A stretch of DNA of 59,393 bases from a plasmid: sequence record NC_011409.1, one strand, 5' to 3'. Numbering within the stretch: the first letter of the stretch is position 1; every line of letters starts with the position of its first letter. Below are positions 46,801-49,800 of this stretch, in pieces. Made by a program: the position numbers.

Positions 46801-49800
46801 AGGAATCGTACCTCGACTCGGGGGAGCCATATAACCTACACCGCCCCCAATTTGATAAAACACCATATCAGACAAAATAGAATCGGCTTTATTAAATCCA
46901 AACGGATTACTATTAGAAGCTGATACTGGCATGGTTGAGGATAAGATTGCGCACGATATAGCAATATAAGATGCTTTCAGTGCATGATTTAATTTCATAC
47001 TCAATTCCTTTATTAATTAGACCAATCAATACTATACAAAAATGTTTGTCCGCGTTTTTTACAGCACTTGTAAGGACGCCATAATGCCCAGGCATAACTA
47101 CCATTTTCAGATAGCATGCTTGGCGGGTTATCAGGGAAAATAGCACAAGACTGTGAAGTAACCGGGTGAAGCTGTTGCCATTTATGTGTCTTAGCATCCC
47201 CTTCCTTCACCGGTGGAGGAAACCACTCACCATTTGATTGATTATCTTTTTTCGCAATCGGTATATATACATGTGGTTGAAAGGTATTTGTCACAACATC
47301 TGCTACTCGATGCGCTGTTACAGCTGAGGCTTTATAATCATGCACCTGCGTTACCGTACCCGCTCTTGGATAAATATTCCCCCAAGTATCGCCATTCGCT
47401 CTAATTTCTCTCATACCTGGAATAAGCGCTTCAGGATAAACCATTTCCGGAACACCAAATCGCCACGCTAAAAAGTCCAAACCACTCAAGTAATAAGGCA
47501 CAAAAGGCGTTGTCTGACTTTTGCAGTAATACCCTGTACTATTAAGCATTTGACTAATCGCCCCCTGCGGATGACCGATTACATCAACATTTTTAAATGT
47601 TGCTTGCGTGTAGTCTTTGTGTGGTGATTGATAATCTCCACCTTTTACCCCATTGCTAAGGAAATTCATTTCCACCCAAGGATTTTGAGCCTGATGGTTA
47701 TAACTTGAAACCACTACCTCGGGAATATAGTGTTTTATTTTCGTAGATGTCCGGATTTTACAGCCGAATTTTGTACAAAATAACCAAAAACAAGTGCCAA
47801 CAACCTTATAATCTAAACAACTTGTGGAAGCGCTTGATGCCATAATCGACGCAGTGTTTAAAGAAGATTGACCGGACTCCGAAGCTTGCCCTGAAATACT
47901 GGTCAACGCAATTGCAATACAAAGCCCGGATAATGTCATTTTTTTCAATTTCATCTTGTCCCCTCTTTTGTAATCTCTCGTTGCCATAAACTTAATGCCT
48001 GAGCAATATTGGTTTCACCATATATGACACTATCCTCTTTTCCCGGATATTGAAATAAAACTGCAGGCACCTTCTTGATTCCATTTTGCCAACCACTTAT
48101 AAGGCCCTGATAAGAACGCTTTAATTGCTCTTCAGACTGTTTCCATTCAGCAGACTGAAAAATCTGAGATGCTTGCTGAGCTGCTACACTAGGATTCGCA
48201 CTCAATCGCTGACTAATCAAATTTTCCCATTGCTCAACTTGATCAAGTAAATACACCTGGCTTGCAAGCTCTGCATGAAGAATTGGATAATCTTGTGTTG
48301 AATAAACAGTAATTATGGGATTAGGCCCCTGGGCGAACACTGATAGTGGTAACAAACCGAAAAGAAACAGTGATTTTTTTATAGACATAACCATCCCTTA
48401 CGATGAAATTGGATAGTTGAAACATTAACGAAATGACAGGGGGGAATATATAAAAAATTCTTTTTGATTTTGAGATAAATTCTCCATTTCCAAAAAACAA
48501 TTTTTGATAGAGATTCGACAGCCTTATTAAGTATGATTGGACTTGATAAGTCGCTGTGCAAACAGCTCTTATAAGTTGCACGATTCTTGAGAAGCAACGC
48601 CTTGCCTTAGTGCAAGTAGAATCATAGCCAAAATGTTATCCAGCATTCTGAAAGGATACTCTACGCAATCGTAGGAATGCCACCTTAAAGACCTTCCGAG
48701 GGAAAATGATTCCCTTCGGGCATGTCATTTTTCCAAGGAATTTTTTATTTCACATTAGGAGAATGACTATGTCCTCATCCACTCAATTGGAACACTATGA
48801 TGTTCCATCAAGTAACCCTCTTGAAACTCCAACATTTTCATTTCGTGTGGGAAAACACTTGGGCCGTTTTTTCGTTGCAGCTAAAAACAAAGCAACCGAT
48901 AAATACAAACAAGTGACATCTGGTATCAATCAAAGCATTGAAGACGAAGAAGCTCGTCGGCTTTGCGAATTACAAATGATGCTAGATAGCCAAGCGGAAG
49001 AATATGAGGCAATTATTGATGATGTGCAAAGAACGTGGTTAAAACGAACAACGTTATTTAGCATTTTATTTTTGATTGTCGGTATTGTTGGTACAGTGGG
49101 TACTCTTTACTACCTTATGCATTAACATTGCATAAGCTATTCATTTTCAACCCTAAGGGGAATTTTTACCCTTAGAGGTAAAGGTTTCCCTTGCTGTAGG
49201 AGAAAACTTATGAAAGTGACATTACATAACAGTTGTTTAGCTTATTTAGCCAAACATAATGACTCAGAATCTCTAATAGAGGAAGTTCGCACTCAAGCAT
49301 TAAATGCCTGGGAAAATCGAGGAAAAGATGTATCTTCTACTCGTATTATGGTGAATATCCCTAGTCAATACGGACAGAAATATCACTTCTTTACAGTTTC
49401 GCCATACGCAAACCGTAAAGATTTGTTAAGTGTAAGGGGGTAAACATGATTAAGCGTTTACTCAAGCTTGTTAGTTCCAATTGGGACAAAAAAACAATGC
49501 TGCTGGTTTCTGAAGATTTTCGTAAAATCGGCACTTACATCTTAGGTATTGCGTTTGTCGCAATGTTTGTTCAGAATGACAATATTCCGCTACTTCTTGC
49601 CATTATCATTATGATATTTGGCGGAATAGCTTGGTTCTGTGGTGTGTTGTTAGCTAAATATTGCAACAACTTAATGGAGACAGACGGAGCGTAACGTATG
49701 AATATTACGTTAAACTGGAATGGGTTCCTCTTTGCAATTGTCTTTGTACTGTTTTTTATGGGAACAGTTGCTTTTATTGGTGTGCGATCATTAAAACGTC

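What the first reader, a model, noticed from the sequence alone, without database searches (positions are those of the whole stretch)
48553..48689. Third copy of the structured element heads a distant small-gene operon beside the ArdC-like gene
Copy C is ~36 kb from copies A and B but ~95% identical over its 5' 75 nt. It precedes genes 48760-49859 and the ArdC-like antirestriction gene. This links dispersed accessory and anti-defence operons under one repeated cis element.
Basis: seen in the sequence. Interest (0 to 1): 0.6.

Follow-up and report, generated by a model that had tools for sequence, protein, structure and literature searches.

The report
STAXI-like pseudoknot RNA leader, third copy
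The repeat is real: it is a divergent two-module member of the already catalogued but functionally unexplained STAXI family of structured RNAs, and it sits as the 5' leader of the anti-restriction (ArdC) operon of a Haemophilus-type conjugative element.

Summary
A covariance model finds three copies in the window: C (48546-48688), B (12142-12288) and a divergent A (11563-11701). C and B are 92% identical over the first 75 nt.

Each copy is a 5' hairpin followed by two H-type pseudoknot modules. About 98% of pair cells are paired, and every pseudoknot stem and inner hairpin (not the 5' hairpin) shows compensatory changes. G:U pairs lie almost only on the strand of the downstream genes.

This matches the architecture and gene neighbourhood of Rfam STAXI (RF01728), which is known to be abundant in MPF_G integrative conjugative elements. 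The score is only 18 bits against a 40.5-bit cut-off. Bona fide STAXI occupies the same two slots in Salmonella SGI4 and an E. coli ICE: topoisomerase III→STY4534, and ahead of a small-gene/antirestriction operon.

Copy C is conserved upstream of orf118-orf77-(orf82-orf52)-ardC in the 9 Pasteurellaceae-type loci examined. A promoter-like site precedes it. A hairpin follows, then a helix that buries the Shine-Dalgarno sequence and start codon. That platform recurs in 13 leaders across beta/gamma-proteobacteria.

Best reading: a sense-strand RNA leader, not an Frpo-type ssDNA promoter. The effector and the output remain inferred. I class it as a new member of a known kind.

The parts
48508..48537 (+). 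Promoter-like site TAGAGA-18-TATGAT ahead of copy C. The -10 ('gTATGATT') is conserved in all C-type copies and the -35 is weak. A start about 7 nt after the -10 would fall near 48544-48546, at the foot of the 5' hairpin (my placement).
   Evidence: Consensus scan; upstream alignment by eye of 5 C-type copies. Inferred, not mapped.
48547..48571 (+). Copy C, 5' hairpin P0: TAAG-tc-GCTGT-GCAA-ACAGC-tc-CTTA. The loop is GNRA in most copies (GAAA/GCAA/GUAA).
   Evidence: helix 1: 97.9% of cells paired; variation on one side only, G:U.
48575..48623 (+). Copy C, pseudoknot module 1. S1 is GTTGC(48575-79)/GCAAC(48594-98). S2 is GATTCT(48582-87)/AGAATC(48618-23). The loop is TGAGAA. The inner hairpin is CTTGC/GCAAG (48601-16).
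   Evidence: helices 2-4: each has at least one pair changed on both sides (for example GTCG/CGAC in Bisgaardia, GACTCT/AGAGTC in L001, CTTAC/GTAAG).
48624..48636 (+). Linker ATAGCCAAAATGT. 'GCCAAAAT' is almost invariant in all copies and corresponds to the 'CCAAUG' linker of Rfam STAXI.
48637..48680 (+). Copy C, pseudoknot module 2. S1 is TATCC(48637-41)/GGATA(48654-58). S2 is GCATTC(48643-48)/GAATGC(48675-80). The loop is TGAAA. The inner hairpin is CTACG-CAAT-CGTAG (48661-74).
   Evidence: (16 distinct A/B/C copies): 97.7% of cells paired. 9 of 16 pairs change on both sides: S1 3 pairs, S2 2 pairs, inner hairpin 4 pairs. Slid controls reach at most 52%.
48681..48689 (+). Invariant 3' tail CACCT(T/A)AA. 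'TGCCACCT' is identical in all 18 distinct copies. Its role is unknown.
48696..48719 (+). Platform hairpin H1 (CCGAGGGAA-aatga-TTCCCTTCGG). Its 5' arm GGGAAAATGA resembles the SD/start region GGAGAATGAC and could pair with the anti-SD instead.
   Evidence: RNA fold of 48684-48785: -28.1 kcal/mol, z = -2.87. A GGGAA..TTCCC hairpin is found at only 4 places in the window, with 0.43 expected.
48718..48774 (+). Platform helix H2. The anti-SD strand (GGGCATGTCATTTTTCC, 48718-48734) pairs with SD AGGAGA (48757-62) and the start codon ATG (48769-71). The helix needs G:U pairs, so it works only as sense-strand RNA.
   Evidence: This translation-initiation region is the most base-paired of 43 ORF starts in the window (mean pair probability 0.83). 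The same H1-H2 design appears in 13 leaders from other taxa.
48769..49856 (+). Four small ORFs (118, 77, 82 and 52 aa) with no Pfam family. orf118 homologues are restricted to Pasteurellaceae-type sequences.
49907..50890 (+). ArdC-type anti-restriction gene (ArdcN + zincin metallopeptidase domains). Its 3' end appears clipped by a Tn3-family insertion starting near 50822.
12142..12288 (+). Copy B, with the same P0 + two pseudoknot modules. It follows terminator 12030-12057 and precedes H1 (12340-12373), H2 (12377-12414) and the DUF3577/STY4534 gene (12415-12843).
   Evidence: (platform fold z = -5.07).
11563..11701 (+). Copy A, immediately after the topoisomerase III stop codon (11530). It has a conserved extended -10, TGCTATACT (11569-77). 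Next comes a compact pseudoknot: ACCG(11592-95)/CGGT(11608-11) with GTGAATTG(11599-606)/CAATTCAC(11615-22). A module 2 like that of B/C follows. No ORF or platform follows it.

Best explanation
Copy C is a two-module member of the STAXI family of tandem-pseudoknot RNAs. The window is an ICEHin1056/ICEclc/SPI-7-type (MPF_G, MobH) integrative conjugative element.

Proposed mechanism. The element is transcribed with the downstream genes from a promoter that ends about 10 nt before its 5' hairpin. It therefore forms the first ~140 nt of the leader of the orf118-orf77-orf82-orf52-ardC mRNA. Behind it lies a two-hairpin expression platform. H1 is a GGGAA/UUCCC hairpin whose 5' arm mimics the ribosome-binding site. 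H2 locks the real Shine-Dalgarno sequence and start codon against an anti-SD strand. The default state is therefore translationally closed.

The pseudoknot array is the conserved recognition surface. It carries the invariant UGARA loops, the GCCAAAAU linker and the UGCCACCU tail. Through it a trans factor sets mRNA fate or opens the platform. That factor is most likely a protein of the element or of the host.

The same array heads the STY4534 operon (copy B). It also forms the 5' end of a separate non-coding transcript (copy A), which could compete for the same factor.

Shown: the repeat, the fold with its pseudoknots, the folding strand, the conserved position, and kinship to STAXI in architecture and context. 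Inferred: transcription start, cis-regulatory action, coupling to the platform, and the identity of any effector.
For: Fold. 98.3% of pair cells are paired and 10 of 40 pairs change on both sides, with 0 of 500 shuffles reaching this. Module 2 gives 97.7% paired and 9 of 16 pairs compensatory across 16 copies, covering both pseudoknot stems.

Strand. On the + strand there are 12 G:U pairs against 1 A:C, and 11 G:U against 3 A:C that sit only at helix ends or loop positions. The P0 loops are GNRA.

Kinship to STAXI. Both B and C align end to end with RF01728, minus one 44-nt module. The Rfam consensus is P0 + CCAAUG linker + modules of S1/S2/CUGAGA loop/inner hairpin. The published description is a pseudoknot repeated 2-3 times near Ssb, topoisomerase, antirestriction and integrase genes (PMC2864571). 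STAXI is abundant in MPF_G ICEs (PMC5587801).

Same slots. Bona fide STAXI lies between topoisomerase III and STY4534 in SGI4 (88.5 bits), an E. coli ICE (86.5) and Pantoea (86.3). It also lies ahead of six small genes + antirestriction + methylase in the E. coli ICE (86.4 bits).

Transcription. All three enteric STAXIs inspected have a perfect TTGACA -35 at 17-18 nt from a -10 just upstream of P0, two of them right after a terminator. Copy C has TAGAGA-18-TATGAT with a conserved -10. In the gonococcal island RT-PCR placed the ssbB-yegA operon boundary before the DUF3577 gene; I take this to mean the yegA-yef junction pair gave no product (PMC3334931). STAXI RNA was reported as detected by real-time PCR on cDNA from E. 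coli vesicles (PMC12370729).

Platform. H1+H2 is the minimum-energy fold in 13 of 13 leaders, with the anti-SD strand matching each gene's own spacer. Fold z-scores are -2.9 and -5.1. The initiation region after C is the most paired of 43 in the window.

Conservation. The A+B pair plus a distant C recurs on 7 Pasteurellaceae contigs, and synteny around C is conserved in all 9 other loci examined.
Against: The Rfam score is 18 bits against a 40.5-bit cut-off. My own model does not recover the enteric STAXIs; it gives only a 21-bit hit in E. coli O157. Homology therefore rests on architecture and synteny, not on a significant score.

No expression data exist for this element. The promoters of B and C are weak matches (9 of 12; none found for B).

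The H1-H2 platform also follows radC-motif leaders and leaders with no known motif. It may therefore work independently of the pseudoknot array.

I found no covarying complementarity between the array and the platform. Single-sequence folding energies of the array are unremarkable. Sequences in the covariation set are closely related and exchange modules, so cells are not independent events.
Confidence: 0.6

Rival explanations
1. The element is a trans-acting small RNA or protein sponge. Each copy is (or is processed into) a discrete ~150-200-nt RNA that titrates or guides a factor, and its position before genes is secondary. This is how Rfam classes STAXI ('Gene; sRNA').
For: Copy A has its own conserved extended -10, no ORF or platform behind it, and a terminator at 12030-12057. 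In the E. coli ICE two STAXI copies are followed by GAGGGCTTTTT(T), and one lies before EFASI and an integrase gene rather than directly before a gene. Tandem repeats of one module suit multimeric protein binding. An E. coli STAXI amplicon was reported from vesicle cDNA (PMC12370729).
Against: B and C have no convincing terminator between the array and the gene. Their distance and orientation to the first gene are fixed across genera. The best duplex between the copy-A transcript and the B/C leaders is no better than with shuffled sequence. This reading is not exclusive of the leader reading: A could be the decoy for B and C.
Confidence: 0.2
2. The element acts as folded single-stranded DNA during transfer or replication of the ICE. 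Candidate roles are an Frpo-like ssDNA promoter, a priming (ssi) signal for complementary-strand synthesis, or a folded recombination site.
For: The neighbouring genes all handle ssDNA (Ssb, topoisomerase III, DUF3577, ArdC). Weinberg et al. raised this option for STAXI. Leading-region anti-defence genes of plasmids are preceded by ssDNA promoters (PMC11541004). If oriT lies upstream of the relaxase gene (55497), the ardC operon would be near the leading end and point toward oriT, as leading genes do. That geometry is an inference; oriT is not mapped.
Against: No helix is longer than 8 bp, so no hairpin can rebuild a -35/-10 pair as Frpo does. G:U pairs sit on the sense strand, whereas an ssDNA promoter must fold on the template strand. 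Canonical double-strand promoters sit just upstream in the enteric relatives. GNRA and UUCG loops and a G:U-dependent anti-SD helix point to RNA. A priming role for the + strand is not formally excluded.
Confidence: 0.07
3. The element is a selfish or fortuitous dispersed repeat (MITE/REP-like, or a duplicated promoter region) with no function of its own.
For: There are three copies in one element, and modules are exchanged between copies (the L019 C copy carries an A-type module 2).
Against: Compensatory changes maintain seven helices, including pseudoknots. There are no terminal inverted repeats or target duplications. Position and orientation are fixed in 7 or more ICEs of five genera. The same slots are filled by STAXI in enterobacterial ICEs.
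Confidence: 0.03

Closest known systems
STAXI RNA motif (Rfam RF01728; Weinberg et al. 2010, PMC2864571)
   Same: It has a 5' tetraloop hairpin followed by tandem copies of one H-type pseudoknot module. Each module runs S1-5', S2-5', conserved YUGARA loop, S1-3', inner hairpin, S2-3'. A CCAA(A)U linker precedes the modules. It lies on the sense strand just downstream of a promoter, in MPF_G ICEs. It occupies the topoisomerase III→STY4534 slot and the slot ahead of a small-gene/antirestriction operon.
   Different: It has two modules instead of the usual three. It scores 18 bits against the 40.5-bit gathering score, so Rfam-based annotation misses it. It occurs in Pasteurellaceae, whereas the family was described from Enterobacterales. 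Its inner hairpins lack UUCG loops. It has an invariant UGCCACCU tail that is absent from the Rfam consensus.
radC RNA motif (Rfam RF01754)
   Same: It is a positional analogue. In pKLC102 and an Enterobacter plasmid it occupies the same place: right after a promoter, ~105-115 nt before the STY4534 gene, followed by the same H1-H2 platform. It is repeated before several small genes of the same element.
   Different: It has an unrelated sequence and a nested, non-pseudoknot consensus fold. There is no hit in this window.
Frpo/ssi single-stranded-DNA promoters of plasmid leading regions (Masai & Arai 1997, cited from PMC11541004)
   Same: They are repeated structured elements placed before ssb and anti-restriction genes of conjugative elements.
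   Different: Frpo is one long imperfect hairpin of the transferred (template) strand that rebuilds -35 and -10 boxes. Here the helices are 4-8 bp, they form pseudoknots, and they fold on the sense strand.
Translational operators with a 5' pseudoknot plus a masked ribosome-binding site (for example the phage T4 gene 32 leader; recalled from general knowledge, not tested here)
   Same: It combines a pseudoknot at the 5' end of a leader with control at the ribosome-binding site, and the genes concerned encode ssDNA-handling proteins.
   Different: No repressor has been identified. The array is tandem, and the operons encode several unrelated proteins. This is an analogy only.

Membership tests
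STAXI (RF01728) | [quoted passage not shown] | tested here: met
   There are two H-type pseudoknot modules per copy. Both stems of both modules keep pairing through compensatory changes.
STAXI (RF01728) | Conserved anatomy of the consensus: 5' hairpin, CCAAU linker, CUGAGA-type loop between S2-5' and S1-3', inner hairpin | tested here: met
   B and C align to model positions 1-153 with one 44-nt module deleted. A side-by-side comparison with the SGI4 STAXI alignment agrees. The loops here are UGAGAA and UGAAA, and the linker is GCCAAAAU.
STAXI (RF01728) | Neighbourhood of Ssb, topoisomerase, antirestriction and integrase genes | tested here: met
   A lies after topoisomerase III. B lies before DUF3577-DUF3560-RadC, with Ssb 4 kb upstream. 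C lies before ardC. Bona fide STAXI fills the same slots in SGI4, an E. coli ICE and Pantoea.
STAXI (RF01728) | Score at or above Rfam's gathering threshold (40.5 bits) | tested here: not met
   Scores are 18.2 bits (C) and 18.3 bits (B), with no hit for A. The reciprocal model R1 does not reach the enteric STAXIs; its best hit is 21.4 bits in L047.
STAXI (RF01728) | UUCG tetraloops frequent in the repeats (used as the argument for RNA) | tested here: not met
   The inner loops are CTTAGT, CAAT, TAA and similar. P0 instead carries GNRA loops (GAAA/GCAA/GUAA).
Frpo/ssi ssDNA promoter | A long hairpin of the transferred strand that reconstitutes -35 and -10 hexamers | tested here: not met
   The longest helix is 8 bp, and no -35/-10 pair lies inside a helix.
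Frpo/ssi ssDNA promoter | The folding strand is the template strand of the downstream genes | tested here: not met
   G:U pairs lie on the sense strand: 12 against 1, and 11 against 3 at terminal or loop positions.
Frpo/ssi ssDNA promoter | Location in the leading region next to oriT on the T-strand | not testable with these tools
   oriT and nic of this ICE family are not mapped in the data available. The relaxase gene is at 55497-57404.
radC RNA motif (RF01754) | Match to the covariance model | tested here: not met
   There is no hit in the window at gathering score or at E<=10 around the copies. It is present in the equivalent slot of pKLC102 and the Enterobacter plasmid.
cis-regulatory leader with masked ribosome-binding site | SD and start codon paired with an upstream anti-SD, conserved through compensatory change | tested here: met
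   13 of 13 leaders; rank 1 of 43 for the gene after C; rank 10 for the gene after B.
cis-regulatory leader with masked ribosome-binding site | A defined signal or effector that opens the structure | not testable with these tools
   No ligand, protein or sRNA could be identified. The duplex test with the copy-A transcript was negative.

The most novel reading that the evidence does not exclude
STAXI (and its positional analogue, the radC motif) together with the H1-H2 platform may form an RNA-level entry switch. In this reading the establishment and anti-restriction operons of MPF_G ICEs are transcribed constitutively but kept translationally shut. They open only when a factor that binds the pseudoknot array is drawn away, for example an ssDNA-binding protein of the element titrated by incoming single-stranded DNA, as with T4 gp32. 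Copy A would act as a built-in decoy RNA. This would be the ICE counterpart of the ssDNA-promoter burst of plasmid leading regions, achieved by a different mechanism.
Probability: 0.12. Interest if true: 0.8.

Novelty: new member of a known kind. Interest (0 to 1): 0.42.

Why it matters
STAXI has been catalogued since 2010 and makes up, with the radC motif, most RNA genes found in MPF_G ICEs. No function has been reported in the literature I could search.

This window adds three things. First, it gives a compact two-module version that standard Rfam annotation misses, so the family is wider than recorded. Second, it shows that STAXI, the radC motif and this variant fill the same two leader slots across gamma-proteobacteria. 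Third, it shows that these leaders end in a conserved structure that buries the ribosome-binding site of the first gene of the ssDNA-handling and anti-restriction operons.

Together these turn 'unknown sRNA' into a testable cis-regulatory hypothesis. The hypothesis concerns how a clinically important family of resistance-carrying ICEs (this one carries Tn10 and a TEM-sized beta-lactamase ORF) controls its establishment and anti-defence genes.

Tried and rejected
1. PLSDB megablast of 30000-50800 found no match, and 48300-50900 matched only a Tn3-family end. No annotated twin record was available. The identity with ICEHin1056 rests on size and cargo (59.3 kb; amp/tet/cam; PMC5812530) and was not verified by sequence.

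2. Searching the literature for 'STAXI' alone returns psychology papers. Combined terms gave only the discovery paper, the ICE census and one vesicle study.

3. Frpo-like promoter: rejected on helix length and folding strand.

4. Reciprocal covariance-model search: R1 is too sequence-specific (effective sequence number 1.17) and does not reach the enteric STAXIs.

5. A closing helix between the 5' flank (UUAAGGUG) and the 3' tail (CACCUUAA) is perfect in copy B but not conserved in other copies. Rejected.

6. CsrA-type GGA sites: the GGA belongs to a covarying stem arm and is absent from several modules. Not pursued.

7. The in-frame upstream ATG at 48706 as the true start of orf118: a 1-nt length difference in relatives breaks the frame. 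Rejected.

8. The T-run after the anti-SD as a general terminator: present only in the AT-rich Pasteurellaceae leaders. Not general.

9. Base pairing between the copy-A transcript and the B/C leaders is no better than with shuffled sequence.

10. The Acidobacteria, Streptomyces and other hits of the genome pattern scan do not match the element profile and were treated as chance or unrelated.

11. PDB sequence search with the DUF3577 protein: nothing found.
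Full report
What the window is.
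NCBIfam and Pfam scans identify a SPI-7-type DnaB, an ICE ParB, an STY4528 replication protein and a PFL_4669 protein. They also identify Ssb (7654-8076), topoisomerase III (9470-11530), DUF3577/STY4534 (12415-12843), DUF3560 and RadC. Further along are TraD (30481-32730), MPF_G transfer proteins, a MobH relaxase (55497-57404) and a XerC-like integrase (57495-58307). Two IS10 RNA-OUT hits bracket 14.6-26.6 kb. A Tn3-family end begins at about 50822.

Size (59,393 bp) and cargo fit the 59.3-kb ICEHin1056 of Haemophilus influenzae (PMC5812530). I could not verify that identity by sequence. PLSDB holds no near match.

The observation.
blastn and nhmmer find a second copy at 12143-12289 (85.7% over 147 nt, E=2.6e-43) and a partial third at about 11625. 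A covariance model built from B/C-type copies finds three copies and no fourth:
- C at 48546-48688 (175.7 bits)
- B at 12142-12288 (163.6 bits)
- A at 11563-11701 (39.3 bits)

C and B are 92% identical over the first 75 nt and 89% over 137 nt.

Relatives.
A pattern taken from the invariant core retrieved loci from Haemophilus, Aggregatibacter, Necropsobacter, Rodentibacter and Bisgaardia. It also retrieved two IMG/VR contigs. Seven contigs carry the same trio: an A+B pair about 600 nt apart, plus a distant C. This gave 18 distinct element sequences. The arrangement DUF1525 gene (opposite strand) | C | orf118-orf77-(orf82-orf52)-ardC is conserved in all 9 other loci examined; two of them are truncated and show only the adjoining genes.

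Anatomy.
Each B/C-type copy has the following parts:
- A 5' hairpin, P0, mostly with a GNRA loop.
- Module 1: S1 GTTGC/GCAAC, S2 GATTCT/AGAATC, loop UGAGAA, and an inner hairpin.
- A linker, AUAGCCAAAAU.
- Module 2: S1 UAUCC/GGAUA, S2 GCAUUC/GAAUGC, loop UGAAA, and an inner hairpin.
- An invariant tail, UGCCACCU.

In each module the 5' arm of S2 lies inside the S1 hairpin, so each module is an H-type pseudoknot. Single-sequence folding energies are not impressive, but comparative evidence is:
- On 12 distinct B/C copies, 98.3% of pair cells are standard pairs and 10 of 40 pairs change on both sides. No shuffle reaches this (0 of 500), and slid controls give 32-46%.
- On module 2 of 16 distinct A/B/C copies, 97.7% of cells are paired and 9 of 16 pairs are compensatory. 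These comprise three pairs in S1, two in S2 and four in the inner hairpin.

The sequences are related and swap modules; the L019 C copy carries an A-type module 2. The cell counts therefore overstate the number of independent events.

Which strand folds.
G:U pairs occur on the + strand 12 times against one A:C. In the module-2 set there are 11 G:U against three A:C, and those three all sit at helix ends or loop positions. The folded molecule therefore has the sense of the downstream genes.

What family.
In E-value mode both B and C align end to end with Rfam STAXI (RF01728), with one 44-nt module deleted. They score only 18 bits against a gathering score of 40.5, which is why the default scan is silent.

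The Rfam consensus, seen on the SGI4 copy, is a 5' hairpin, a CCAAUG linker and three modules. Each module has the order S1-5', S2-5', CUGAGA, S1-3', UUCG hairpin, S2-3'. The discovery paper defines STAXI as a pseudoknot repeated two or three times near Ssb, topoisomerase, antirestriction and integrase genes. That paper left open whether it acts as RNA or ssDNA, favouring RNA (PMC2864571). The ICE census of Cury et al. found radC and STAXI RNAs to be 80% of the RNA genes in MPF_G ICEs (PMC5587801). I found no functional study.

Synteny with bona fide STAXI.
- In Salmonella SGI4 a STAXI of 88.5 bits lies between topoisomerase III and the STY4534 gene.
- The same holds in an E. coli ICE (86.5 bits) and a Pantoea plasmid (86.3 bits).
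- In the E. coli ICE a further STAXI (86.4 bits) heads six small genes, an antirestriction gene, DUF1281 and an N6-methylase. This is the counterpart of copy C.
- Another E. coli STAXI precedes EFASI and an integrase gene.
- In pKLC102 and an Enterobacter plasmid the slot before STY4534 is filled by the radC motif. That motif is also repeated before other small genes of the same element.
- STAXI-like sequence occurs in 686 of 5426 complete E. coli genomes, with a median of two places per genome.

Transcription.
The three enteric STAXIs I inspected each have a perfect TTGACA at 17-18 nt from a -10 that ends 10-20 nt before P0. Two of them follow a terminator directly. Copy C has TAGAGA-18-TATGAT, and the -10 is conserved in all C-type copies. 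Copy B follows a strong terminator (12030-12057), but the scan finds no good promoter. B and C share an upstream motif, (A/T)TCTCCA, about 65 nt before P0.

Copy A differs from the others. A conserved extended -10 (TGnTAYNNT; TGCTATACT at 11569-77) sits inside what aligns with P0. No ORF or platform follows it, and the next terminator is at 12030-12057.

In the gonococcal island, RT-PCR defined an operon running from ssbB to yegA. The yegA-yef pair was also tested, and I take yef (DUF3577) to be a separate unit (PMC3334931).

The platform.
Between each of B and C and its gene lie two hairpins.
- H1 is a GGGAA/UUCCC hairpin. Its 5' arm resembles the ribosome-binding region.
- H2 pairs an anti-SD strand with the SD and start codon.

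For C, the anti-SD strand GGGCAUGUCAUUUUUCC pairs with GGAGAAUGACUAUGUCC, and G:U pairs are required. The fold z-scores are -2.87 for C and -5.07 for B.

The same two-hairpin fold is the minimum-energy structure in all 13 leaders tested. These are B, C, SGI4, two in E. coli, Pantoea, pKLC102, Enterobacter, Klebsiella, two Vibrio, Burkholderia and Shewanella. In each, the anti-SD strand matches that gene's own spacer.

Within the window, the initiation region after C is the most base-paired of 43 ORF starts. The one after B ranks tenth.

Because the platform also follows radC-type and unclassified leaders, it may act on its own. Coupling to the pseudoknot array is an inference.

Mechanism and rivals.
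The best-supported reading is a sense-strand RNA leader. The pseudoknot array forms the 5' end of the mRNA and is a recognition surface for an unidentified factor. Translation of the first cistron is gated by the H1/H2 alternative.

- A trans-acting sRNA or sponge role is likely for copy A and cannot be excluded for B and C.
- An ssDNA role is disfavoured. The helices are too short to rebuild a promoter, the fold is on the sense strand, and ordinary promoters lie upstream. A priming function of the + strand is not formally excluded, because oriT is unmapped.
- A selfish repeat is contradicted by covariation and fixed placement.

Verdict.
However, the element belongs to a known, functionally uncharacterised family. 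It is a divergent two-module Pasteurellaceae member that Rfam thresholds miss.

Noticed in passing
window 11700-12066 (+): This is a conserved non-coding stretch after copy A. It holds a near-perfect 60-nt hairpin at 11757-11816, mis-scored as mir-35 at 30.5 bits, and an intrinsic terminator at 12030-12057. Together with the extended -10 at 11569-77 it looks like a ~480-nt sRNA whose 5' end is the STAXI-like copy A. It recalls the STAXI+EFASI pairing in the E. coli ICE, but there is no EFASI hit here.
   Followed up: partly
window 12340-12414 and 48696-48774; L043-L054 upstream of STY4534 genes: A two-hairpin platform (a GGGAA/UUCCC hairpin, then an anti-SD:SD/AUG helix) is conserved before DUF3577/STY4534 genes from Pasteurellaceae to Burkholderia. 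It is present whatever lies upstream (STAXI, radC motif, or nothing known to Rfam). It is not matched by any Rfam family at E<=10 around copies B and C in this window.
   Followed up: partly
L019:1601-1755 compared with window 11636-11699: Copies exchange parts. The C-type copy of an Aggregatibacter ICE carries the A-type module 2, and some B copies carry the C-type module 2. This implies recombination or gene conversion among the three copies.
   Followed up: no
window 12070-12085 and 48483-48498: B and C share a motif about 65 nt upstream of the 5' hairpin: AAAATATCTCCAAAT in B and GATAAATTCTCCATTT in C. AATTTTT follows in both. It is a possible common regulator site.
   Followed up: no
window 50822-52621: A Tn3-family end starts at ~50822, inside the last codons of ardC; relatives align only to residue 320 of 327. 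It is followed by a 286-aa ORF of TEM beta-lactamase size (50985-51845, -) and a serine-recombinase-family (resolvase/invertase-like) gene (52028-52621, -). The transposon appears to have clipped the 3' end of ardC.
   Followed up: partly
window 54396-54538: There are about ten tandem copies of the 13-nt unit TTAACTCTTATGA, 1 kb upstream of the MobH relaxase gene. These are candidate iterons or part of oriT.
   Followed up: no
window 5347-5475 and 5947-6142: Two sets of direct repeats lie at the 3' end of, and just after, the STY4528 replication-protein gene: 40-nt units in 3 copies and 36-nt-spaced units in 4 copies. This is a possible replication-origin region.
   Followed up: no
window 59033-59309: A tandem duplication of a 138-nt unit (95% identical) lies next to the integrase end of the element.
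   Followed up: no
window 14658-14727 (-) and 26523-26592 (+): Two inverted IS10 RNA-OUT matches (97-99 bits) bracket a ~12-kb Tn10-like insertion directly after the RadC gene of the copy-B operon.
   Followed up: no
L044 18660-22402; L045 13332-19885: In pKLC102 and an Enterobacter plasmid the radC motif is repeated 3-4 times. Each copy lies ~65-215 nt upstream of a small gene on the same strand.
   Followed up: partly
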